Assembly (NCBI GenBank): GCA_035517035.1
Contig: DATIZP010000022.1
Span: 13,605-77,604 of the forward strand
DNA from: Streptosporangiaceae bacterium
GTDB lineage: Bacteria; Actinomycetota; Actinomycetes; Streptosporangiales; Streptosporangiaceae
Reading direction: 5' to 3'
Length of the DNA: 64,000 nt
Position numbers and translations under genes: made by a program. The notes below the pieces were generated by a model. That model worked only from the letters and a program-made list of their open reading frames with translations. It was not told the origin of the DNA and made no database searches. Below are positions 2,950 to 50,028 of the stretch, piece after piece; within the stretch, counting starts at the first letter, position 1, and every line of letters begins with the position of its first letter.

Positions 2950-3459
2950 CTACAGGTGCGATGGGTCGTCCGGCGTTTCGTCCGCCGCGGCTGCGGCGAC
3001 GGTCGGCGGGGAGTGCTTGTAGAGTCTGCCAGCCGGGGCGGGCGAGCGAGCCCCGATTGCGCCGACCACCCCGGCCACGGCCGCATCGACGGACTCGTGC
3101 TCCCAGAGCCTGACCACGGTCCAGCCTGCCGCGTCGAGCGCCGCGTCGGCGGCCCGGTCGCGCTCGACATTGCGGCGCAGCTTGGGCTCCCAGTACCAGG
3201 TGTTGGACGCCGGCTGGCTGCCGTGCTCGGGACAGCAGTGCCAGAAGCAGCCGTCCACGAACACCGCCACCTTGCGCGCGGTGAACACGATGTCCGGCCT
3301 GACCCGCACCCCGTCGGCCAGGTCGAGCCGGTAGTCCTTGCGGTACCGGTAGCCGAGCGCGTGCAGCGCTCGCCGCAGCGCCATCTCCGGCTTGGTGTTG
3401 ACCCGGCGGTTCGCCTTCATGTTGGCCGACCGTCCCGGGCTTGACGGGTGCGGGTACAT
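2950..3459 (-). CDS. vsr: very short patch repair (T:G mismatch) endonuclease
   Basis: ORF 2950..3630 trimmed to ATG 3459. Vsr hallmarks: SANMKANRRVNTKPEMALRRALHALGYRYRKDY, RPDIVF, VAVFVDGCFWHCCPEHG, YWEPKLRRNVERD. Confidence 0.85.
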   Translation of the reverse strand: MYPHPSSPGRSANMKANRRVNTKPEMALRRALHALGYRYRKDYRLDLADGVRVRPDIVFTARKVAVFVDGCFWHCCPEHGSQPASNTWYWEPKLRRNVERDRAADAALDAAGWTVVRLWEHESVDAAVAGVVGAIGARSPAPAGRLYKHSPPTVAAAAADETPDDPSHL

Positions 3460-5074: not shown

Positions 5075-6106
5075 CTAGCTGGTCTGGGTGACCTTGCTCA
5101 GGCCGCGCGGATGGTCGGGGTCGATGCCGAGCCGCCTGGACAGCGCCTCGGTCAGCAGCTGGCCAGGGACGATGAGGCCGATCGGCGCCAGCCACTCCGG
5201 CAGCGCCGGCCCGGGCAGCGCGCGGTCGCACGCGGCGGCGAGCCCGGCTCCGCCGCCGATGGCGTAGGCGCGCGCCCCGGCACCGGTGACCCGCCTGGCC
5301 AGGTTGATCGCCGCGTCCTGCGTGGGGCCGGAATCGGGTCCCATGATCACCGCGGGGGTGCGGGCGTCGACCACAGCGATCGGGCCGTGCTGCAGGTCGG
5401 CGTAGGAGATGCCCATCGCGTGCAGGTAGCACGCTTCCTTGATCTTCAGCGCCAGCTCGAGCGCGGCCGAGTAGGCGAGCCCGCGGGCGGATACCACCAG
5501 GCCGTCCACGCTGGCCAGCTCGGCGACGATCTCCTTGAGGCCGAAGGCAGGGCCGTCGGCGCCGGCCAGCAGCTCAGCGACGGCCTCGGGCAACGCCCTG
5601 AGCTGGCCGGTGTCCAGGTCGGCGCCGAGCCCGATCGCGAGCACGGCGAGCGCGGCGAGCTGGCAGGTGAACGTCTTGGTGGCCGGCACCGCGCGCTCGG
5701 CGCCCGCCTGGGTCACCAGCGCCACGTCGGCGAGCTCGGCGATGGGCGAGCCGGCCCCGTTGGTGATCGTCGCGATCGCCGCGCCGCAGTCGCGCGCCCA
5801 GGTCAGCGTCTCGATGATCTCCACGGTCTGGCCCGACTGCGACAACCCGACCGCGAGCACGCCGGTCAGGTCCATCCTCGCGTGGTAGGCCGTGGCCACG
5901 GACGGCGCGCCGAGACTGGCCAGCCTGCCTGCGCTGGTCTGGATCAGGTAGCTGCCGTAGACCGCCGCGTTGTCCGACGTGCCCCGGGCGAAGAACAGCA
6001 CCTGGCGGGCTCGTCCGGCCAGGGCGGCGACCTGCGCTGCCTGCGGCAGCAGCGCGTCGATGGTGGCGCGGAGCGCCGCGGGCTGCTCCATGATCTCGGC
6101 CCGCAT
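5075..6106 (-). CDS. SIS-domain sugar-phosphate isomerase/deaminase (GlmS C-terminal-like, NagB-II/AgaS type)
   Basis: ORF 5075..6304 trimmed to ATG 6106 (MRAEIMEQPAALRATIDAL...). It has two SIS halves (GTSDNAA..., LSQSGQTVE). It lies immediately downstream of nagA on the same strand. GTG 6139/6145 are alternative starts. Confidence 0.75.
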   Translation of the reverse strand: MRAEIMEQPAALRATIDALLPQAAQVAALAGRARQVLFFARGTSDNAAVYGSYLIQTSAGRLASLGAPSVATAYHARMDLTGVLAVGLSQSGQTVEIIETLTWARDCGAAIATITNGAGSPIAELADVALVTQAGAERAVPATKTFTCQLAALAVLAIGLGADLDTGQLRALPEAVAELLAGADGPAFGLKEIVAELASVDGLVVSARGLAYSAALELALKIKEACYLHAMGISYADLQHGPIAVVDARTPAVIMGPDSGPTQDAAINLARRVTGAGARAYAIGGGAGLAAACDRALPGPALPEWLAPIGLIVPGQLLTEALSRRLGIDPDHPRGLSKVTQTS

Positions 6107-6239
6107 GTGCGTCGGCTGCTGCTGGTGCTCGGTTGCCACCGCGACCCCGTCCGTTGCCCGTGCCCGCCTTGATGCGAATTCTCCCCGCCGGCAGACTACG
6201 GGACGCGCGCCGTCCGGCGCGAGGCACTCGCCCAGGCTG

Positions 6240-7421
6240 TTAGCCCAGGTGAGAACCGTAGGCCAGGCGGCCGGCGACCCAGGTGGCGCGGGTGCGCAGG
6301 TCATCGCCGAGCCAGGTCAGGTCGGCGGCCGCTCCGGCCGCGATCCGGCCGAGGTCGCCGCGGCCGATCAGGTCGGCCGGGATCCTGGTGGCGGCGGCTA
6401 CCGCGTCGGCAAGACCGACACCGGTCGCGACCATGTTCGCGACCGCGGAGTCCATCCGCAGCGCCGAGCCGGCCAGCGTGCCGTCGGCACGCACCGGCGG
6501 CGTCCCGTCGCCCTCGCCGAGCTCGATCGGCTCGCCGCCCAGCGCGTAGCGCCCCGGCGGCATGCCCGCGCAGGCGGACGCGTCCGAGATCAGGCAGATC
6601 CGGCCCGGGGCGGCCGCGAACGCGATCGCGACGACCTGGCCGGCGACGTGGTGCAGGTCGGCGATCAGGCTGGACACCAGGCGGGTGTCGGCCAGCGCCT
6701 GCCCCACCACGCCTGGGTCACGATGATGCAGGGGACGCTGTGCGTTAAACAAGTGCGTGACGAGTCGCGCGCCGCACCTCGCCGCGGCGCTGACCTGAGC
6801 GGCCGTGGCATCGGAGTGACCGACGCCGACCAGCACGCCGGCCGACGTCAGCTGCCTGATCACCGCCATGGCCCCGTCGAGTTCGGGCGCCAGCGTCATC
6901 ACCCTGACCAGCCCGCGGCCGGCCGCGAGCAGGTCGGCGACCGCGCCCGGATCGGGAGCGGCGGCCCACGCCGGGTTGTGCGCGCCTGGCCGTTTGGGCG
7001 AGATGAACGGGCCCTCCAGGTGCACTCCGAGCACCCGGGCCGCTCCCGGCATGCCGGCCAGGTCGGGCGCGAAGTCCGCGGCCCTGCGCACGGCGGCCGC
7101 CATCTCGGCGACCGGCGCCGTGATGAAGGTCGGGACGAACGCGGTCGTCCCCGTCTCGGGCAGCCGCCGAGCGACGGCGCCCCAGCCGACCTCGTCAGCC
7201 GCGCTGAGCTCCACGCCGAAGTACCCGTTCACCTGGATGTCGACCAGGCCAGGCAGCAGCACGCCGTCTCCGAGCTCAATGTCGGGGCGGCCGGGCGGCT
7301 GGCCGGGTCCCACGCTGGCGATCTGGCCGTTCTCCCAGGCCACATAGCCAGGCGCGAGCACCTCGGCGGCGCCGTATGGCGCCCGGACCGCGGTGATGAT
7401 CCGTGCCGCCGCGATCAGCAT
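6240..7421 (-). CDS. nagA: N-acetylglucosamine-6-phosphate deacetylase
   Basis: Amidohydrolase motifs PGLVDIQVNGYFG, VHLEGPFISP, GVGHSDAT and THLFNAQ. About 390 aa. Confidence 0.85.
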   Translation of the reverse strand: MLIAAARIITAVRAPYGAAEVLAPGYVAWENGQIASVGPGQPPGRPDIELGDGVLLPGLVDIQVNGYFGVELSAADEVGWGAVARRLPETGTTAFVPTFITAPVAEMAAAVRRAADFAPDLAGMPGAARVLGVHLEGPFISPKRPGAHNPAWAAAPDPGAVADLLAAGRGLVRVMTLAPELDGAMAVIRQLTSAGVLVGVGHSDATAAQVSAAARCGARLVTHLFNAQRPLHHRDPGVVGQALADTRLVSSLIADLHHVAGQVVAIAFAAAPGRICLISDASACAGMPPGRYALGGEPIELGEGDGTPPVRADGTLAGSALRMDSAVANMVATGVGLADAVAAATRIPADLIGRGDLGRIAAGAAADLTWLGDDLRTRATWVAGRLAYGSHLG

Positions 7422-7465
7422 CTGGCTAGCTTGGCACCCGCCGCGGGCGATGTCGCCCGATATGC

Positions 7466-8515
7466 CTAACCGCGAACGCGGTCGGCGGACACCGCCGCGG
7501 CGCCGGCCGCGGCGGCGCGGACCCGGTCGAGGAACACGCCGATCTCGGCGGCCACCAGCGCAGGCCGTTCCATCATCGCGACGTGCCCGACGCCGGGCAG
7601 CACGAGCACCCGCGCCGAGCCGAAGGCGCGGGCGGCCTTGCCGGCCATCACCGGGTTCACCAGCCTGTCGTGACTGCCGTGCAGGATCAGGGCGGGCGCG
7701 GTGCTCGCCGCGGCGTCACGCCACAGCGACTTCCTGCCCACCCTGAAGTACTCGCTCACCAGGCTGCGCGCGGACATGATCAGGGCGTTGTTCGCGTACA
7801 TCAGGCTGTCCCGCCTGAGCACCTCGGCGATCTCGGCGCTGCGCCTGGACGGATGGATGACCCCGGGGTCGGTGTACAGGTCGCGCAGCGTCCGGTCGGT
7901 TCTGTCCTCGGCGGGAACGCTGCGCAGCCAGTCCATGATCGCCGGGCCGACACCGGGCAGCGAGGCCAGCGCGAGCCGCAGCGGCAGCGGACGAGGCCGC
8001 AGGTCGGGCAGGGCCGGGGAGATCAGGATGATCGTTTCGACCAGGTCCGGCCGGCGCGCGGCCACCCGGGTGATCACGGCGCCGCCCATCGAGTTGCCGA
8101 TCAGGTGCACCGGCCCGGCGGCCTGGTACTCGATCAGCTCGATCACCGCGCTGGCATGGGAGCTGATCGAGTAGTCGCCGCTCAGCGGCGGCGGCGAGCA
8201 GCCGAAGCCTGGCAGGTCGATGGCGGAGCAGGCGAGCGCGGGCCCGGCCACCCCGGCCTCCCGCGGCCGCGACAGCAGGTCCATCAGGTCGGTCCAGTTG
8301 GTGGACGACCCGCCGAGCCCGTGCACGCACAGAGCCGGCTCGGCGCCGGGCACGGCCGGGGCGCTGCGGACGTAGACCTGCCCGCCCCGCAGGTCGACGC
8401 AGCGGCCGGGCCAGTGCGGGATCGGCTCGCCGGTTCCCTGGTCGCCGCCTGGCTCGCCGGATGGCGCCTGATCGCTGGTCACCTGCAGCATGTCGATCGC
8501 CTCGCATCTCCCCAA
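7466..8515 (-). CDS. alpha/beta fold hydrolase
   Basis: HGLGGSSTNW oxyanion region, GNSMGG nucleophile elbow, C-terminal GHVAMMERP. ATG 8491 is an alternative start. Confidence 0.85.
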   Translation of the reverse strand: MGRCEAIDMLQVTSDQAPSGEPGGDQGTGEPIPHWPGRCVDLRGGQVYVRSAPAVPGAEPALCVHGLGGSSTNWTDLMDLLSRPREAGVAGPALACSAIDLPGFGCSPPPLSGDYSISSHASAVIELIEYQAAGPVHLIGNSMGGAVITRVAARRPDLVETIILISPALPDLRPRPLPLRLALASLPGVGPAIMDWLRSVPAEDRTDRTLRDLYTDPGVIHPSRRSAEIAEVLRRDSLMYANNALIMSARSLVSEYFRVGRKSLWRDAAASTAPALILHGSHDRLVNPVMAGKAARAFGSARVLVLPGVGHVAMMERPALVAAEIGVFLDRVRAAAAGAAAVSADRVRG

Positions 8516-23376: not shown

Positions 23377-24012
23377 ATCATCCGCCCAGACGTCACCGTC
23401 ATACTCGACGAGTTCGCCGCCGAGGATGAGGCGCTGCTGACGGCGCGCGCGAACGCCGAGCGGCTCGGCGGTGCCATGCCGGTGGCCCCGCTGACCGGTG
23501 CCACGCTGCGTTTCCTCGCGAGCGCGATCGGAGCCAGGGCCGTGGTCGAGATCGGCACCGGATTCGGCACCTCGGGTCTCTGGCTGCTGCGCGGCATGCG
23601 CCAGGGATCGGTGCTCACCAGCGTGGACACCGAGCCCGAGCATCATCGGCTGGCCAGGGCAGTGTTCGCCCAGGCCGGCTTCGGCTCCGCCAGGTACCGG
23701 CTGATCACCGGCCGCGCGCTCGAGGTGCTGCCCAGGCTTGCCGACGGCGCCTATGACCTGGTGTTCTGCGACGCCGACAAGCGCGAGTTCCCCGAGTACC
23801 TCGCCGCTGCGCTGCGCCTGCTCCGGCCTGGCGGGATCGTCGCCTTCGACAATGCACTGTGGGAGGACGAGAGCCCCAACATCGCCCACCGGGACCCTGA
23901 CTCGCTCGCCGTCGGCGAGCTTAGGGACCTGGTCGCCGCAGACAGCAGCCTGGTGCCGCTGCTGCTGCCCGTCGGCGACGGGCTGCTGGCCGCGGTCAAG
24001 CTGACCGCCTAG
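23377..24012 (+). CDS. class I SAM-dependent O-methyltransferase (caffeoyl-CoA OMT-like); probable ATC start
   Basis: ORF track gives 23476..24012. However, conserved family sequence (EDEALLTARANAERLG...VVEIGTGFGTSGLWLL) extends upstream of ATG 23476. The frame opens after stop 23317-23319 with no ATG/GTG/TTG. GGAGG at 23367-23371 lies 5 nt before ATC 23377. Confidence 0.7.
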   Translation: MIRPDVTVILDEFAAEDEALLTARANAERLGGAMPVAPLTGATLRFLASAIGARAVVEIGTGFGTSGLWLLRGMRQGSVLTSVDTEPEHHRLARAVFAQAGFGSARYRLITGRALEVLPRLADGAYDLVFCDADKREFPEYLAAALRLLRPGGIVAFDNALWEDESPNIAHRDPDSLAVGELRDLVAADSSLVPLLLPVGDGLLAAVKLTA

Positions 24013-24125
24013 CGCCTGTCCCGTAGATCGTGGGACCGGGTCGGTGGAGACGGGCCGCTGGCCGCGGTCAAGCTGACCGCTTAAGGCCTGTCCCGTAGAT
24101 CGCGGGCCTGTCCCGTAGATCGTGG
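23977..24125. repeat. junction duplications: 36-bp OMT gene 3-prime end plus element terminus repeated
   Basis: GACGGGCTGCTGGCCGCGGTCAAGCTGACCGCCTAG (23977-24012) recurs as GACGGGCCGCTGGCCGCGGTCAAGCTGACCGCTTAA (24047-24082). The terminus motif GCCTGTCCCGTAGATCG occurs three times (24014, 24086, 24106). Confidence 0.85.
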
Positions 24126-24205
24126 GGCTGGGTCGGTGGACCCAGGCCCTGATGGCTCGGCTTGTGGTCTGGCGCAGGCCGTCCCCGAGGCCGCCGTCGG
24201 CCGCC

Positions 24206-24327
24206 GCGCCCTCCACCACCCGGACGCGCCCTCCACCACCCGGACGCGCCCTCCACCGCCCCGGACGCGCCCTCCACCACCCGGACACGCCCTCCACCAC
24301 CCGGACACGCCCTCCACCACCCGGAGA
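24206..24327. repeat. 20-22 bp tandem repeat x6 inside element copy A
   Basis: GCGCCCTCCACCACCCGGAC repeated six times with minor variants. Copy B has only about one unit at the equivalent place. Confidence 0.9.
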
Positions 24328-24332
24328 TGATC

Positions 24333-24360
24333 TTGATGGATGTGGCGGATGTCCCAGAAT
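24333..24360 (+). promoter_or_regulatory. promoter-like motif TTGATG-N16-CAGAAT in the conserved core of element copy A
   Basis: Resembles the actinomycete housekeeping-sigma consensus TTGACN-N16-18-TAGAPuT. It lies in a 63-bp block identical in both copies. Confidence 0.35.
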
Positions 24361-24715
24361 ACGCAGTGGATGTGGCATCCATTCCACGGCCACCCAGGTG
24401 ATCACATCCAGTTTCGGCTGGTATGCGACGATCCGAGGGGCTGTGATCGCCCGGGCGCGGAGGCCGGCCGCGCTGTGCTCCGGGTTGTGCGTGGCTGGTG
24501 ATGCCGCGCGGCAGGGCGGTCGGTGCCGCGGAGATCCACGGGACAGGCGCTAGCCCCTAGGCCGGTCATGGCGGCGGGGGTCGAGCACTAAGGGACGGGC
24601 CCGCAGCAGGGCGAACAGCTCGCGGATCGGCCGGAGCTGCCACGTCCAGCCGCCCAGAGATCCCCTGACTAACCGGTCTTGCGCCTCGCCCGCCTAACGG
24701 TTTGTCGCAGGCCGG

Positions 24716-26287
24716 TTAGCTCACCTGCAGCCAGCGCAGCAGCAGCCTCGTGCCGAACCCGGTGGCGCCCGCCGAGATCTCGCCGTCGTCACCGGAGCTC
24801 CGCGCGGCGCCGGCGACGTCCAGATGCGCCCACGGCCGGGACCCGGCGAACTCCCTGAGGAACAGCGCGGCCAGGACCGACCCGGCTCCCTCGCTGCCCC
24901 TCGATACGTTGGCCAGGTCGGCCACCGGGGAGTCGAGCGCACTCCGGTAGTCGTCGGCGAGCGGCATCCGCCACAGCCGGTCGCCGCACGCCTCACCGGC
25001 CGCGATCAGGCCGGACGCCAGGTCGTCGCTGGTGGCGTACAGGGCGGCCCGGCTGCCGCCCAGCGCGATCCGCGCGGCTCCGGTGAGCGTCGCGATGTCG
25101 ATGATCGCGTCGGGCGCCAGGGTCGCGTCGGCATAGGCGATGGCGTCGGCCAGGACCAGCCGTCCTTCGGCATCGGTGTTCAGCACCTCAACGGTCCGGC
25201 CGCCGAAGCAGGTGATCACGTCGCCCGGCCGGTACGCCGAGCCGGATGGCATGTTCTCCGCCGCAGCGACCAGGCCCGTGACCTGGTGGGTCACGCCGAG
25301 CCTGGCGAGGGCCGACAGGACCGCGATCACCACGGCGCCGCCCGCCATGTCCGTCTTCATCGCCTTCATGCCGTCGTTCGGCTTGAGCGAGAGTCCGCCG
25401 CTGTCAAACGTGATGCCCTTGCCGACCAGGACCACATGCCGCTGCGCCGACGGCGGCTCGTACCGAAGCTCGATCAGCCGCGGCGGGCGCTCGGAACCCG
25501 AGCCCACGGCGGTGATGCCGCCGAACCCGGCGGCAGCGAGCTCCTGCTCGTTCCACACCCGGACGGCAAGTCCCGCCGGCGCGGCCGCGTCGCTGGCCGC
25601 GTCCGCGAGCCACTGCGGCGACTTGCGCACCGATGGGGTGTTGGCCAGGTCCCTGGCCAGGGCGGTCGCAGCGGCGACGACCGCCGCCTGGCCGATCGCG
25701 CCGTCCCGGTCGGCCTCGTTGCCGCCGACGGCGGTAGCTGGGGTGGCGGCAGCCGGCGCTCCCGGCGCCATGAGCAGCAGCACCGAGACCTGCCCGGCCT
25801 GCTCCTGCCCGCCCTGGTCCTGCACCGAATCTGACGACTTCTCCGAGTACCGGTAGGAACCGAGCATGACCCCCTCGGCGAACGCCCGTACCTGGTCGTC
25901 GTCCGCACCAGTCACCGCGGTGGCAACAGCGCTCTCGCCGGGCCGCAGCGCCCGGCCGAGCTCGGCGCCGGCCCTGCGCAGCTCGGGCGCCGACCTGTCG
26001 CCGACCCCGAGGAAAGCGACCCTGACGACATGCTGACCGGCCCGAGCGGGCACCTGGGTCAGCTGGCCGGGCTTGCCGGCAAGCTGCAGCGACCTGATCA
26101 CCTCGCGGGCCGGGACCGTCAGCGCGCCGTCCAGCGCCTCGTCGGCGACGATCTCACCGCCGGTGCCTACGGGCACCGCGACGAGATCCACCGGCTCGCC
26201 GGTGCCCGCTGCCGCGGCTCGTAGCAGGTCACCCGCGGTACGCAGATCCTCGCGGACGAGCGGTGTGACAGTGGCGATGGCAGGCAT
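24716..26287 (-). CDS. pepA: leucyl aminopeptidase (M17)
   Basis: VGKGITFDSGGLSLKP, MKTDMAGGA, NTDAEGRLVLADA. Confidence 0.92.
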   Translation of the reverse strand: MPAIATVTPLVREDLRTAGDLLRAAAAGTGEPVDLVAVPVGTGGEIVADEALDGALTVPAREVIRSLQLAGKPGQLTQVPARAGQHVVRVAFLGVGDRSAPELRRAGAELGRALRPGESAVATAVTGADDDQVRAFAEGVMLGSYRYSEKSSDSVQDQGGQEQAGQVSVLLLMAPGAPAAATPATAVGGNEADRDGAIGQAAVVAAATALARDLANTPSVRKSPQWLADAASDAAAPAGLAVRVWNEQELAAAGFGGITAVGSGSERPPRLIELRYEPPSAQRHVVLVGKGITFDSGGLSLKPNDGMKAMKTDMAGGAVVIAVLSALARLGVTHQVTGLVAAAENMPSGSAYRPGDVITCFGGRTVEVLNTDAEGRLVLADAIAYADATLAPDAIIDIATLTGAARIALGGSRAALYATSDDLASGLIAAGEACGDRLWRMPLADDYRSALDSPVADLANVSRGSEGAGSVLAALFLREFAGSRPWAHLDVAGAARSSGDDGEISAGATGFGTRLLLRWLQVS

Positions 26288-46856: not shown

Positions 46857-47638
46857 GTGAGCCCGGCGGACAGGTTCTGGTGCGCGCCGAGAGCGCGGGC
46901 GGGGTGCGAACGATCACGCTCAACTCGCCGCACAACGCCAACGCGCTGTCGAGCGGGCTGCTGTCCGAGCTGCAGACGGCGCTGGACGAGGCGATGGCCG
47001 ACACCGGCGTCCGGGTGGTGGTGCTGACCGGCACCGGCAAGGTGTTCTGCGCCGGAGCCGACCTGACGGAGGCGCGGACCAGGCCGGCCGGCGCCACCGG
47101 CCTGATGGCCCGGGTCGTGGAGCTGCTCTGGGACGCCACCAAGCCGACGATCTGCCGGGTGAACGGCGCGGCGCGGGCCGGCGGCATCGGCCTGGTCGCC
47201 GTGTGCGACATCGCGATCGCAACCCAGCGTGCCACATTCGCGTTCTCCGAGGTCAGGATCGGCGTGGTTCCTGCCGTGATCTCGGTGCCCTGCCTGCGCC
47301 GGATGCCGTCACGGGCGGCCGCCGAGTACTTCCTGACCGGGGAGGTCTTCGAGGCGACCCGAGCGGCCGAGATCGGCCTGCTGACCAGGGCCGTCCCCGA
47401 GGAGGACCTGGACGCCGAGACCGCCAGGTACGCCGGGATGCTGCTGCGCGGCGGCCCGGGTGCGCTCGCGGGCACGAAGGACGTGCTCAGGGATGTCCCC
47501 GGCGAGACGGTGGGGGCCGGGCTTGCCCAGATGGCCGCGCTCTCCGGCGCCTTCTTCGGCTCCGCGGAGGCCGGGGAGGGGATGGCGGCGTTCGCCGAGA
47601 AGCGCGATCCAGCCTGGGTGCCGGCGGCCGGCGGCTGA
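46853..47638 (+). CDS. enoyl-CoA hydratase (methylglutaconyl/isohexenylglutaconyl-CoA hydratase-like)
   Basis: ITLNSPHNANAL, VLTGTGKVFCAGADL. ATGA overlap with the upstream gene. Confidence 0.85.
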   Translation: MSEPGGQVLVRAESAGGVRTITLNSPHNANALSSGLLSELQTALDEAMADTGVRVVVLTGTGKVFCAGADLTEARTRPAGATGLMARVVELLWDATKPTICRVNGAARAGGIGLVAVCDIAIATQRATFAFSEVRIGVVPAVISVPCLRRMPSRAAAEYFLTGEVFEATRAAEIGLLTRAVPEEDLDAETARYAGMLLRGGPGALAGTKDVLRDVPGETVGAGLAQMAALSGAFFGSAEAGEGMAAFAEKRDPAWVPAAGG

Positions 47639-47639
47639 G

Positions 47640-49478
47640 ATGCCGGGCGAGCCTCCCGCGGTGCTGCGGATCGCTAACTGCAGCGGGTTCTACGGCGACC
47701 GGCTGTCCGCGGCGCGCGAGATGGTCGACGGCGGCCCGATCGACGTGCTAACCGGCGACTGGCTGGCCGAGCTGACCATGCTGCTGCTCGGCAAGGCCAT
47801 GCTGAGCGGGCGGCCAGGGTATGCCAGGACGTTCCTGACCCAGCTCGAGCAGGTGCTGCCGACCTGCCTGGAACGCGGGATCAAGATCGTAGCCAACGCG
47901 GGCGGGCTCGATCCGGCCGGGTGCGCCGCAGCGGTCACCGAACTGGCCAGGCGGGCCGGGCTCTCCCCCGTGGTCGCCCACGTCGAGGGCGATGACCTGC
48001 TCGCCAGGCTTCCCGAGCTGCAGCAGGCCGGGCACCCGCTGGCCAACTCCGACACCGGGGAACGGCTCGCGCAGGCGGGGGTGACCCCGCTGACCGCCCA
48101 CGCCTACCTGGGCGGGCTGCCGATCGCCAGGGCGCTGGACGCCGGGGCCGACGTGGTGGTCACCGGCCGGGTGACCGACGCCGCGCTGGTCACCGGGCCG
48201 GGGATCTGGCGGTTCGGCTGGGACGGCAGTGACCTGGACGCGCTGGCAGGCGCGGTGGTGGCGGGCCACGTGATCGAGTGCGGCTGCCAGGCGAGCGGGG
48301 GGAACTACTCGTTCTTCGCCGAGGTGCCTGACCTGGCCGCGGCCGGCTTCCCGCTGGCCGAGCTGGCCGCCGACGGGTCGGCGGTGATCACCAAGCATCC
48401 GGGCACCGGCGGCCAGGTGTCGGTGGGCACCGTGACCGCCCAGCTGCTCTACGAGATCGGCGGCCCGCGCTACCTCAACCCCGACGTCACGGCGCGCTTC
48501 GACACGATCGCGGTCGAGCAGGCCGGGCCAGATCGGGTCAAGGTGAGCGGCGTCCGCGGCGAGCCGCCGCCCGGCACGCTCAAGGTGTCGCTGAACTACG
48601 CCGGCGGATACCGGAACTCGATGATCCTGGCGATCGAAGGACTCGACGTGGCCGCCAAAGCCCGGCTGGCCGAGCAGACGCTCTGGTCCCGCATCGATGG
48701 CGGCAGGAGCGCCTTCGAGACCGCTGACGTGGAGCTTGTCGGGTCCGATCCGGCACTGCTGCGGATCACCGTGCTCGACCAGGACAAGGCCAAGGTGGGC
48801 CGCGCGTTCTCCGCGGCCGTGGTCGAGACGGCGCTGGCCAGCTATCCGGGGTTCTACGCGCTCACCCCGCCCGGCGACGCGTCCATGTTCGGGGTCTACT
48901 GGCCGACGCAGGTTCCCGCCGAGTTCATCTGCACCCGGGTCCTGATCGACGGCACGCCGGTCTGGTCAGGGCCGGCTCGCCTGGAACCACCCGAGCCAAC
49001 CGCCGCAGGGCCGACCGGCGCAGGGCCGACCGCCGCTGAGACAGGCTCCGCTGAGACAGGCGCCACTGAGACGGGCAGGCAACCGGCCGCGCGAGCCGGC
49101 CGGGCCCCTGAGTCCGCACCGACCAGGCGGGTACCGCTCGGCACGATCGCCGGCGCCCGCTCGGGCGACAAGGGCGGGAACGCCAACGTCGGGGTGTGGG
49201 TCCGCACGCCCGAGGAGTTCGCCTGGCTGGACGGCTACCTCACCACTGGGCGCCTCGGCGAGCTGGTCCCCGCGGTCGCCGGGCTGCCGGTGCAGCGGTA
49301 CCCGCTGCCGAACCTGCTCGCGATCAACTTCGTCGTGGTCGGGCTGCTCGGCCGTGGCGTCGCGGCGAGCACGAGGCTCGACCCGCAGGCCAAGGCGCTC
49401 GGCGAGGAAGTGCGCGCCGCGCTCGCCGACATCCCGGTCGCGCTGCTCGACCTGGCCGGGGCCGACGCCGGCGCCTAG
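47640..49478 (+). CDS. acyclic terpene utilization AtuA family protein (DUF1446)
   Basis: Part of ORF 47460..49478. ATG 47640 lies 1 nt after the hydratase stop. RIANCSGFYGDRLSAAREMVDGGPIDVLTGDWLAELTM is the AtuA N-terminal signature. The C-terminal domain has SGDKGGNANVGVW. Confidence 0.8.
   Translation: MPGEPPAVLRIANCSGFYGDRLSAAREMVDGGPIDVLTGDWLAELTMLLLGKAMLSGRPGYARTFLTQLEQVLPTCLERGIKIVANAGGLDPAGCAAAVTELARRAGLSPVVAHVEGDDLLARLPELQQAGHPLANSDTGERLAQAGVTPLTAHAYLGGLPIARALDAGADVVVTGRVTDAALVTGPGIWRFGWDGSDLDALAGAVVAGHVIECGCQASGGNYSFFAEVPDLAAAGFPLAELAADGSAVITKHPGTGGQVSVGTVTAQLLYEIGGPRYLNPDVTARFDTIAVEQAGPDRVKVSGVRGEPPPGTLKVSLNYAGGYRNSMILAIEGLDVAAKARLAEQTLWSRIDGGRSAFETADVELVGSDPALLRITVLDQDKAKVGRAFSAAVVETALASYPGFYALTPPGDASMFGVYWPTQVPAEFICTRVLIDGTPVWSGPARLEPPEPTAAGPTGAGPTAAETGSAETGATETGRQPAARAGRAPESAPTRRVPLGTIAGARSGDKGGNANVGVWVRTPEEFAWLDGYLTTGRLGELVPAVAGLPVQRYPLPNLLAINFVVVGLLGRGVAASTRLDPQAKALGEEVRAALADIPVALLDLAGADAGA
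49001..49075 (+). repeat. 15-bp in-frame tandem repeat x5 in the AtuA-like linker
   Basis: CGCCGCAGGGCCGAC CGGCGCAGGGCCGAC CGCCGCTGAGACAGG CTCCGCTGAGACAGG CGCCACTGAGACGGG. Confidence 0.9.
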
Positions 49479-49553
49479 CGCCTGCCCCGTAGATCTCCGC
49501 GGGCACCGACGGCTCTACCGCGCGCCATCACCGGCCATGGACAACCCGGAGCC

Positions 49554-49610
49554 GCGCGGCTGGCCTCCGCGCCGCGCGGCTGGCCTCCGCGCCGCGCGGC
49601 CGCGGCCGCC
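49554..49610. repeat. 20-bp tandem repeat x2.5 inside element copy B
   Basis: CCGCGCGGCTGGCCTCCGCG twice plus a partial unit. It is single-copy at the equivalent place in copy A (near 24445-24470). Confidence 0.85.
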
Positions 49611-49703
49611 CGGCCGAGCACCCCCGCCCTGATCCCGGCATACCAGCCGAAACCGCACGTGATCACCTGGGTGTCGGTGGAATGGATGCCACATCCACTG
49701 CGT

Positions 49704-49731
49704 ATTCTGGGACATCCGCCACATCCATCAA
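49704..49731 (-). promoter_or_regulatory. same promoter-like motif in element copy B (minus strand)
   Basis: ATTCTG-N16-CATCAA on the plus strand, which is TTGATG-N16-CAGAAT on the minus strand. Identical to copy A. Confidence 0.35.
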
Positions 49732-50028
49732 GATCATCTACGGGCGGTACGGGGCGCGGTGGCCGGCGGCGGCCCCGGGGACGGCCCGCGCCAGACCACA
49801 AGCCGGAGCCATCAGGACCTGGCTCCACCGACCCAGCCCCACGATCTACAGGACAGGCCCCGGCCGGCGCCTTCGCCGTAACCCACCCACGGTGGCCGGG
49901 ATGGTCCTGGAGCGCAATATCAGCTGAGTATCACTTTGGTACGATGTGACCGGCGCAGTTCGGCCGGGGCGGCGTCCTTCACGTGACCTAGACGGCGCTG
50001 GCCGGCACGCCGCATCCCGGGGGCATGA

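What the first reader, a model, noticed from the sequence alone, without database searches (positions are those of the whole stretch)
24325..24425. Identical 63-bp AT-richer core with promoter-like motif inside an otherwise diverged repeat
The arms of the two element copies differ by point changes and by different tandem expansions. Positions 24325-24387 are identical to the reverse complement of about 49678-49740. The next 40 bp (GTGATCAC...TTTCGGCTGGTATGC) are nearly identical. The core contains TTGATG-N16-CAGAAT, three GGATGT motifs and a TGGATG-tgg-CATCCA hairpin. In both copies this putative promoter fires through the same arm toward the 3-prime end of a convergently oriented gene: pepA for copy A and the AtuA-like gene for copy B. 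The core could therefore drive a small RNA or a 3-prime antisense transcript. Alternatively it could be a protein-binding module under selection.
Basis: partly seen in the sequence, partly recalled or inferred. Interest (0 to 1): 0.62.

Follow-up and report, generated by a model that had tools for sequence, protein, structure and literature searches.

The report
Frozen 64-bp core in decaying MITEs
A small, long-dead mobile element, probably present in hundreds of copies in an uncultured wetland actinomycete, keeps its central 64 bases almost letter-perfect in every copy while the rest decays, so the host (or some homogenising process) needs that centre; it most likely acts as a small promoter or protein-binding unit.

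Summary
The two window copies (24104-24550 plus strand, 49476-49860 minus strand) belong to a family of roughly 357-bp non-coding elements. The family has 16-17 bp terminal inverted repeats and sits in CTAG/TA sites, so it is a MITE. I recovered at least 69 distinct loci from three Everglades metagenomes. K-mer depth suggests a few hundred copy-equivalents.

In 23 canonical copies the 64-bp core (24323-24386) differs from the consensus at 1.45% of the positions that were not used to find the copies. The arms differ at 7-11.5% and the terminal repeats at 5-6.5% (Fisher p = 3e-21). No two loci share a near-identical element, so the family is old and immobile. The core therefore appears to be maintained copy by copy. 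Deletion derivatives keep it. Independent peat and soil metagenomes show the same picture.

What the core does is not shown. No RNA data exist. The proposed promoter matches only 8 of 12 consensus positions. The "fires toward a convergent gene" pattern is a by-product of insertion at TAG stop codons. There is suggestive evidence for a forward-strand hairpin that starts at the predicted transcription start.

My best reading (about 0.4) is an exapted promoter/operator unit that launches a short RNA. A pure protein-binding site is nearly as likely.

The parts
24104..24550 (+). Copy A of the MITE. Left terminal repeat GCCTGTCCCGTAGATC at 24106-24121, right terminal repeat at 24533-24548, followed by CTAG at 24550-24553.
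24323..24386 (+). The 64-bp core GGAGATGATCTTGATGGATGTGGCGGATGTCCCAGAATACGCAGTGGATGTGGCATCCATTCCA. It is near-invariant across the family.
   Evidence: 1.45% against 7-11.5% divergence; depth 6000-7800 against 100-560.
24333..24360 (+). Forward promoter-like hexamers: TTGATG (24333-24338), a 16-nt spacer, CAGAAT (24355-24360). Predicted start about 24366-24368.
   Evidence: Read. Matches 8 of 12 to TTGACA/TATAAT and is not called by the scan.
24360..24385 (-). Reverse-strand ECF-like motif GGAAT (24385-24381), N17, CGTA (24363-24360). The -35 lies exactly at the sharp right edge of the conserved block.
   Evidence: Read by eye. Not tested.
24336..24382 (+). Repeat architecture inside the core: TGGATGTGGC twice (24337 and 24367), GGATGT three times (24338, 24347, 24368), and the inverted pair ATGGATG (24336-24342) / CATCCAT (24376-24382).
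   Evidence: The two common core polymorphisms are 24379 C>T and 24345 G>A. Both keep the pairs of the predicted in-core hairpin on the forward strand: G-C becomes G.U and G.U becomes A-U.
24368..24409 (+). Candidate forward-strand helix H1. Core 24368-24379 (GGAUGUGGCAUC) pairs with arm 24397-24409 (GRUGAUCAYRUNC). Loop at 24380-24396.
   Evidence: searches (97.7% of cells paired; arm-side changes 40 transitions to 4 transversions, against 239 to 219 elsewhere), and the variant list.
24206..24322 (+). Copy-specific 20-bp tandem expansion in the left arm of copy A. Its length differs between assemblies.
   Evidence: (D2).
23986..24105 (+). Duplicated gene end plus two extra partial left termini in front of copy A. 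The methyltransferase stop codon TAG (24010-24012) lies in the CTAG target.
   Evidence: (D8-D10).
49476..49860 (-). Copy B. Terminal repeats at 49843-49858 and 49480-49495. The stop codon TAG (49476-49478) of the plus-strand gene 47385-49478 lies in the flanking CTAG.
49678..49741 (-). Core of copy B (one mismatch to copy A, at 49740).
   Evidence: L012 is the same locus.

Best explanation
Shown:
- The stretch is the centre of an old, no longer mobile MITE family. The consensus is about 357 bp with terminal repeats (G)GCCTGTCCCGTAGATC.
- The elements sit between cTA and TAg, which is what a TA duplication in a CTAG target would leave. This is the IS630 or IS5/IS427 insertion style.
- The family is present at roughly one copy per 15-30 kb in an uncultured wetland and peat actinomycete lineage.
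- The 64-bp centre is kept almost invariant in each copy. The arms, the tandem repeats and even the terminal repeats decay or are deleted.

Inferred: the centre has been exapted. It is most likely a compact promoter/operator unit. In this reading an AT-richer -10 (CAGAAT, with TTGATG 16 nt upstream) is embedded in four GGATG(T) recognition repeats. It starts a short forward-strand RNA at about 24366-24368. The first 12 nt of that RNA (GGAUGUGGCAUC) pair with the adjoining arm (GRUGAUCAYRU) to form a 5' stem-loop. Because the elements sit at stop codons, such transcripts would often run antisense into a neighbouring gene's 3' end. That geometry is a side effect of target choice.
For: MITE status:
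- Terminal repeats are 9 matches against 0.72 expected.
- 26 complete elements have cTAg on both flanks.
- At least 69 distinct loci were recovered.
- No conserved ORF exists, and core substitutions are non-synonymous in every frame.

Old and inactive family:
- Every pair more than 95% identical is the same locus seen in different samples.
- Nearest-neighbour arm distance is 7-16%, and the phylogeny is star-like.

Core constraint:
- 1.45% divergence against 5-11.5% elsewhere, p = 3e-21.
- Depth profiles in four Everglades runs and in peat and soil runs of other studies agree.
- Deletion derivatives L079 and L065 keep the core.
- An extra copy found only through its terminal repeat has 1 mismatch in the core.

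Promoter/RNA reading:
- The hexamers are at the stated places, and GC drops to 0.55.
- Helix H1 starts at the predicted +1/+2 and has 97.7% of cells paired. Six of its 11 pairs vary on the arm side only through G-C/G.U or A-U/G.U changes.
- Transitions to transversions are 40:4 at paired arm positions against 239:219 elsewhere.
- In raw contigs the variants at paired positions 24398, 24405 and 24406 are transitions. Those at unpaired positions 24387, 24388, 24390, 24396 and 24408 are transversions.
- Consensus folds are more stable on the forward strand (-34 against -24 and -37 against -21 kcal/mol).
Against: - No transcript data. No RNA run holds the core.
- The hexamers match only 8 of 12 positions and fail the scan threshold.
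- L079 has TTGGTG. Shorter or diverged cores (L010 minus-strand 7425-7480, L046, and contigs that start at 24335) lack the -35.
- A promoter does not need an invariant spacer or the invariant positions flanking the hexamers.
- The RNAalifold covariation term is only -0.32, with no real compensatory double changes.
- The excess of G.U over C.A appears for each strand's own predicted fold, so that test does not discriminate between strands.
- By variable site-alleles rather than cells, the transition excess is not significant (7:4 against 97:96).
- Orientation relative to tandem neighbouring genes is random (10 against 15).
- No terminator was found, and there is no Rfam match.
- Several hundred active promoters would be a burden on the cell.
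Confidence: 0.4

Rival explanations
1. The core is a DNA site for a sequence-specific protein, or a nucleoprotein platform, with no transcript of its own. A host regulator, a nucleoid-associated protein or a transposase-derived protein would recognise the GGATG(T) units (three direct, one inverted). This would be comparable to the IHF site in Correia elements or the gyrase and IHF sites in REP/BIME elements.
For: - All 64 positions are invariant, not just two hexamers.
- The repeat architecture is TGGATGTGGC twice, 30 bp apart, plus ATGGATG/CATCCAT.
- Orientation relative to neighbouring genes is random.
- The core is retained in derivatives that have lost both arms.
- Diverged relatives keep the GGATGTGG-bearing flanks while the centre and the -35 differ.
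Against: - No candidate protein is known.
- The palindrome TGGATGNNNCATCCA never occurs outside the cores in about 0.9 Mb of flanking DNA, so there is no sign of a wider regulon.
- This reading does not explain the transition-only variation at arm positions that could pair with the core.
Confidence: 0.3
2. Concerted evolution without function. Gene conversion among hundreds of copies keeps the most similar segment homogeneous while the arms drift past the homology threshold.
For: - Very high copy number gives many conversion partners.
- The two common core polymorphisms are spread across otherwise unrelated copies.
- Left and right arms are not correlated in their distances (Mantel r -0.11 to 0.23). 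That could reflect exchange at the core, or simply a star-shaped phylogeny.
Against: - The block has the same sharp edges in all subfamilies and in deletion derivatives, which conversion tracts should blur.
- An AT-richer neutral segment in a 72% GC genome would be expected to drift toward GC.
- The same core, with other arms, occurs in metagenomes from different studies.
Confidence: 0.15
3. The core is a cis-acting site needed for transposition, such as an internal transposase-binding enhancer. It would then be conserved because only elements that have it propagate.
For: TGTCCC is shared between the terminal repeat and the core centre (read). Internal enhancers are known in other transposons (established knowledge for Mu and Sleeping Beauty).
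Against: - The family looks inactive. No identical copies occur at different loci.
- The terminal repeats themselves have decayed 4 times more than the core.
- Selection for mobility cannot protect copies after their last jump.
- The shared hexamer is not beyond chance.
Confidence: 0.08
4. The core encodes a micro-protein. The candidates are the forward ORF MDVADVPEYAVDVASIP... with GGAG 9 nt upstream, or the reverse ORF MDATSTAYSGTSATSIKIIS....
For: Both strands are open across the core. GGAG-N9-ATG lies on the forward strand, and an in-frame TGA in TGATCA is common.
Against: - Third codon positions are as invariant as the others, and every observed substitution is non-synonymous in both frames.
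- GC3 is about 44% in a genome where real genes exceed 82% (criteria).
- Reading frames beyond the core are not conserved.
Confidence: 0.03

Closest known systems
Correia repeat-enclosed elements (CREE) of Neisseria
   Same: Both are short non-coding MITEs with terminal inverted repeats and TA target duplication, present in hundreds of copies and mostly intergenic. Correia elements have a functional internal IHF site and outward promoter elements that affect neighbouring genes (from established knowledge, not tested here).
   Different: There is no sequence similarity. The element here is about 357 bp instead of 100-155 bp. In Correia elements the promoter elements are associated with the ends. 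Here the terminal repeats decay and a central 64-bp block is the conserved part. The host is a high-GC actinomycete.
RUP (repeat unit of pneumococcus), mobilised by IS630-Spn1
   Same: Both are non-autonomous elements with terminal inverted repeats and TA duplication of the IS630 type, present in many copies (established knowledge).
   Different: RUP is 107 bp. Its subfamily structure has been read as recent mobility, and I know of no reported invariant internal core. Here the cognate IS was not found, and an IS5/IS427-type parent cannot be excluded.
ERIC/IRU and REP/BIME elements of enterobacteria
   Same: These are dispersed intergenic repeats kept by the host. They have a conserved central part (ERIC), bound proteins such as IHF and gyrase (BIME), and a preference for the 3' ends of genes (established knowledge).
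   Different: Those are imperfect palindromes without MITE-type terminal repeats and TA duplication. REPs are moved by RAYT transposases. The core here is dominated by direct repeats, not a palindrome.
Other MITE families with the same terminal repeat in uncultured Actinomycetes MAGs (156-175 bp and about 460 bp; L097-L120)
   Same: They share an identical 16-20 bp terminal repeat, GCCTGTCCCGTAGATC, and TA-containing flanks, and they occur in the same bacterial class.
   Different: Their internal sequence is unrelated. The 64-bp core and the arms are absent. The core 22-mer is absent from all 185,579 species genomes scanned.

Membership tests
MITE (non-autonomous DNA transposon derivative) | Terminal inverted repeats at both ends | tested here: met
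   GCCTGTCCCGTAGATC with at most 3 mismatches gives 9 hits in the window against 0.72 expected. Paired ends were found in 26 complete elements.
MITE (non-autonomous DNA transposon derivative) | Small size and no transposase gene | tested here: met
   The consensus is 357 bp. ORFs through it are not conserved beyond the core.
MITE (non-autonomous DNA transposon derivative) | Many dispersed copies at unrelated loci | tested here: met
   96 metagenome stretches yield at least 69 distinct loci. There are 2-3 copies per 20-64 kb contig.
MITE (non-autonomous DNA transposon derivative) | Target-site duplication | tested here: inconclusive
   The flanks read cTA[g]...[c]TAg at most complete elements and in the sister families. 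This fits a TA duplication in CTAG. No empty site was found to prove it.
MITE (non-autonomous DNA transposon derivative) | A cognate autonomous IS with the same terminal repeats | tested here: inconclusive
   None was seen in about 1 Mb of fetched loci.
IS630-family-derived MITE | TA duplication with CTAG preference, and terminal repeats matching an IS630-family member | tested here: inconclusive
   The TA/CTAG context is met. The terminal-repeat match to a named IS was not tested. IS5/IS427-group elements have the same target habit (from memory).
Sigma-70-type promoter | Hexamers near consensus at 16-18 nt spacing | tested here: not met
   TTGATG-N16-CAGAAT matches 8 of 12. The scan needs 9 of 12 and returned no site. 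It does fit the looser actinobacterial ANNNT -10 (established knowledge).
Sigma-70-type promoter | A mapped transcription start | not testable with these tools
   No RNA run holds the sequence.
Known RNA family (Rfam 15) | A covariance-model match | tested here: not met
   Only one chance-level miRNA hit (E = 0.58) lies outside the element in 23500-25000.
Structured RNA (new) | Base pairs supported by compensatory changes | tested here: inconclusive
   Helix H1 has 97.7% of cells paired, with one-sided pairing-preserving changes only and no double changes. Shuffles do not differ. The covariation term is -0.32. The strand test is uninformative.

The most novel reading that the evidence does not exclude
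A whole-genome array of several hundred identical 64-bp modules, delivered by an extinct MITE and then domesticated. In this reading the array works as one system in an uncultured peat and wetland actinomycete lineage. It could be a multi-copy small-RNA or antisense family that starts at a common promoter/operator and is switched by one GGATG-binding regulator. Alternatively it could be a dedicated chromosome-wide binding platform.
Probability: 0.25. Interest if true: 0.75.

Novelty: new variant of a known kind. Interest (0 to 1): 0.55.

Why it matters
MITEs are usually treated as junk whose only constrained parts are the ends. Here the ends decay and a sharply bounded internal block is frozen in every copy, in several independent peat, soil and wetland metagenomes. 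That is the signature of exaptation on a genome-wide scale, in a lineage with no cultured member.

If the core is a promoter/operator or a binding platform, it would add hundreds of identical control points next to gene ends. That would give a natural example of how a transposon burst wires a regulatory or architectural network in high-GC actinomycetes. It would also supply a compact, portable 64-bp part to test. If the cause is instead concerted evolution, the family would be a clean case of conversion limited to a 64-bp tract.

Tried and rejected
Copy number and orientation along the chromosome, and a search for the parent IS in the same genome, could not be done.
- Core 22-mer in 185,579 species genomes: 0 hits.
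- Plasmid and phage collections: no match.
- Rfam: nothing.
- Literature search for the sequence: nothing. A search for papers on IS630-type MITEs in actinobacteria found nothing that describes such a family.
- RNA runs: none.
- Coding reading of either strand: rejected.
- "Nested younger invader" idea, that the core inserted later into an older MITE: rejected. No contig or joint skips the core, and no core-less copy was seen.
- Recent-transposition idea: rejected.
- Antisense-by-design idea: rejected in favour of the target-site explanation. The counts for convergent, tandem and divergent neighbours are 21:25:5. Both ends abut the 3' ends of genes.
- Strand test by counting G.U against C.A: uninformative, because each strand's own prediction is biased.
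- Arm-linkage test for recombination at the core: weak or no correlation, but the same holds within arms, so it only shows a star-shaped phylogeny.
- Search for the parent transposase next to solitary terminal repeats in named MAGs: only an IS3-like insertion was found.
- DnaA box, parS, dif and the regulator boxes I could recall: compared by eye only, and none fits.

Full report
**Tools**

The window's own genome could therefore not be searched. Family data come from public metagenome contigs and sequencing runs.

**1. The observation**

Reading both places and aligning them shows two inverted copies of one element.
- Copy A is 24104-24550 on the plus strand. Copy B is 49476-49860 on the minus strand.
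- Window 24325-24387 equals the reverse complement of 49677-49739 without a mismatch (63 bp).
- Outside that run the aligned columns are 86% identical (39 mismatches in 279).
- 138 columns are gaps caused by different tandem expansions (families D2 and D11).
- For two copies alone, such a perfect run has a window-corrected probability of about 0.03.
- GC falls to 0.55 in the core, against 0.70-0.85 around it.
- The "next 40 bp nearly identical" stretch has 6 mismatches, which is no better than the arms.

**2. What the element is**

- Both ends carry GCCTGTCCCGTAGATC in inverted orientation. The window holds 9 matches with at most 3 mismatches, against 0.72 expected.
- An exact 22-mer from the core found nothing in 185,579 species genomes. 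It found 96 stretches in three JGI metagenomes. These are soils of the Loxahatchee refuge in the Florida Everglades (PMC8067648).
- After removing the same locus seen in several samples, at least 69 distinct loci remain.
- The canonical element is about 357 bp. The left terminal repeat starts about 140 nt before the 22-mer, and the right one ends about 195 nt after it.
- At most complete elements the flanks read cTAg on both sides. This fits a TA duplication inside CTAG, as in the IS630 family or the IS5/IS427 group. That assignment rests on my memory of those families. No empty site was seen.
- There is no conserved ORF.
- Contigs of 20-64 kb carry 2-3 copies.
- In the raw contigs of four runs from the source samples, the summed word depth over the core is 6000-7800. 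Single-copy flanks of this organism have 10-19. That is on the order of a few hundred copy-equivalents, although other populations may contribute.
- This is a MITE family.

**3. Other families with the same ends**

A scan with the terminal repeat in species genomes found other MITE families. They are 156-175 bp and about 460 bp long. They occur in uncultured Actinomycetes MAGs, including bins labelled Streptosporangiaceae and Kineosporiaceae. They have the same ends and TA-containing flanks. None has the core or the arms. The core is therefore specific to this family and lineage. It is nevertheless present in peat and soil metagenomes from several other studies.

**4. The core is far better kept than anything else**

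- In 23 canonical copies, divergence from the consensus is as follows:

| Region | Divergence from consensus |
|---|---|
| Core, 42 positions not fixed by my search pattern | 1.45% |
| Terminal repeats | 5.2% and 6.5% |
| Left arm | 9.8% |
| First 60 nt of the right arm | 11.5% |
| Rest of the right arm | 6.9% |

- The contrast between core and arms gives Fisher p = 3e-21.
- About half of the core differences are two recurrent polymorphisms: 24379 C>T in 19 of 69 copies and 24345 G>A in 7 of 69.
- The edges of the block are sharp and the same in all subfamilies: (C)GGAGATG on the left and CATTCCA on the right.
- The depth profile, which does not depend on my search pattern, shows the same thing. 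Over 24324-24386 the only variant listed above 5% is 24379 C>T (the variant table was truncated). Variable positions start at 24387.
- Contigs leave the alignment exactly at 24386 with unrelated continuations (loose ends).
- A copy found only through its terminal repeat (L020 at about 3207-3270) has one mismatch in the core.
- Peat and soil runs from other studies repeat the picture. In X7 the core depth reaches 270, against 5-18 for the arm.

**5. The family is old and immobile, so the constraint acts on each copy**

- Every pair of elements more than 95% identical turned out to be the same locus in different samples.
- Nearest-neighbour distances in the arms are 7-16%, and the copies form a star.
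- The terminal repeats, which are what a transposase needs, have decayed four times more than the core.
- Deletion derivatives keep the core. L079 is little more than a stop codon, the core and a few bases. L065 has lost the left arm and part of the right arm.
- This argues against conservation for the sake of mobility. It points either to selection on each inserted copy or to homogenisation restricted to the core.
- I saw no copy that lacks the core and no joint that skips it. The idea that the core is a younger invader of an older repeat is therefore not supported.

**6. Not coding**

- Both strands are open across the core.
- Third codon positions are as invariant as the others, and every observed change is non-synonymous in either frame.
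- The codon GC3 is about 44%, whereas real genes here exceed 82%.
- Frames are not kept beyond the core.

**7. Neighbouring genes**

- With a GC3-based gene caller (checked on the window), the gene beyond the right end points toward the element in 48 of 65 cases.
- The gene beyond the left end also points toward it in 32 of 52 cases.
- The counts of convergent, tandem and divergent neighbours are 21:25:5, against an expected 1:2:1 (chi-square about 10, p about 0.007, my arithmetic).
- Many genes end exactly at a terminal repeat, because their TAG stop is part of the CTAG target. Both window copies show this, at 24010-24012 and 49476-49478.
- In tandem gene contexts the core orientation is random (10 against 15).
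- The "promoter aimed at a convergent gene" pattern is therefore a consequence of target choice.

**8. Promoter or RNA?**

- The forward hexamers match 8 of 12 positions, and the scan tool does not call them.
- On the reverse strand I read an ECF-like motif, GGAAT-N17-CGTA. Its -35 sits exactly at the sharp right edge of the block. This is by eye only.
- No RNA run holds the core, Rfam gives nothing, and no terminator was found.
- Consensus folding of the forward strand from the predicted start gives a helix, H1. It pairs core 24368-24379 with arm 24397-24409.
- On 32 copies, 97.7% of cells in H1 pair. Six of the 11 pairs vary on the arm side only between G-C and G.U or between A-U and G.U.
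- Arm-side changes at paired positions are 40 transitions to 4 transversions, against 239 to 219 in the rest of the arm.
- In the raw contigs the variants at paired positions 24398, 24405 and 24406 are transitions. Those at unpaired positions 24387, 24388, 24390, 24396 and 24408 are transversions.
- The two core polymorphisms are also wobble-compatible on the forward strand.
- Several points count against an RNA reading:
  - There are no double compensatory changes.
  - The covariation term is -0.32.
  - Shuffles do not differ from the observed counts.
  - By site-alleles the transition excess is not significant.
  - A G.U against C.A strand test is biased for both strands.
- Shorter or diverged cores that lack the -35 exist: L010 minus-strand 7425-7480, L046, and contigs that start at 24335.
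- The RNA evidence is therefore suggestive, not more.

**9. Verdict**

- Shown: an old, high-copy MITE family whose 64-bp centre is maintained in every copy.
- Inferred, at about 0.4: the centre is an exapted promoter/operator unit that launches a short forward RNA with a 5' stem-loop.
- Nearly as likely, at about 0.3: it is a protein-binding DNA platform built from GGATG(T) units with no transcript of its own.
- Conversion-driven homogenisation without function (0.15), a transposition enhancer (0.08) and a micro-ORF (0.03) are less likely.
- The closest known systems are Correia elements, RUP, ERIC and REP/BIME. There is no sequence relation to any of them. The pattern of decaying ends around a frozen centre is unusual among described bacterial MITEs as far as I know.

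Noticed in passing
window 23986-24125: The last roughly 44 bp of the O-methyltransferase gene, plus the element terminus, are duplicated. The second copy ends in TAA instead of TAG. A third solitary terminus precedes the full element, giving three left termini in a row.
   Followed up: partly
window 24012-24716, compared with L121 and L122: The intergenic stretch holding copy A differs in length between three assemblies of the same locus. The counts are 6, 4 and 3 units of CGCCCTCCACC, and 3, 1 and 4 copies of the terminal repeat. The core is intact in all three. This is either real VNTR polymorphism or assembly collapse.
   Followed up: partly
L097-L120 (species-genome MAGs): Two other MITE families (156-175 bp, and about 460 bp with its own AT-richer centre) share the exact terminal repeat GCCTGTCCCGTAGATC. 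Their interiors are unrelated. They occur in uncultured Actinomycetes, Streptosporangiaceae and Kineosporiaceae MAGs. One transposase lineage may therefore have mobilised several unrelated passengers.
   Followed up: partly
L010 minus strand 7425-7480: A diverged, shorter core-like sequence: GGAGATGGATGTGGAG...GTGGATGTGGCATCGATTCCA. It has a different centre and no terminal repeats nearby. It lies about 200 nt upstream of an acyltransferase-like gene. It is either a decayed fragment or an older relative of the core.
   Followed up: no
L051 about 1266-1310: One family copy has its core cut after ATGTGGCAT by unrelated DNA that leads into a long ORF on the other strand. This is probably a later insertion of another mobile element into the core.
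   Followed up: no
L065 4388-4451: A truncated copy places the core directly next to the start of a SAM-methyltransferase-like gene on the opposite strand. If the reverse-strand ECF-like motif is real, it would sit as that gene's promoter.
   Followed up: no
window 24010-24012 and 49476-49478, and many loci: Elements sit in CTAG where TAG is a gene's stop codon. The terminal G/C of the element regenerates TAG on both sides, so insertion does not destroy the stop.
   Followed up: yes
L111 2854-4650: An IS3-like pair of ORFs lies just inside a terminal repeat of a sister MITE family. This is a nested insertion.
   Followed up: no
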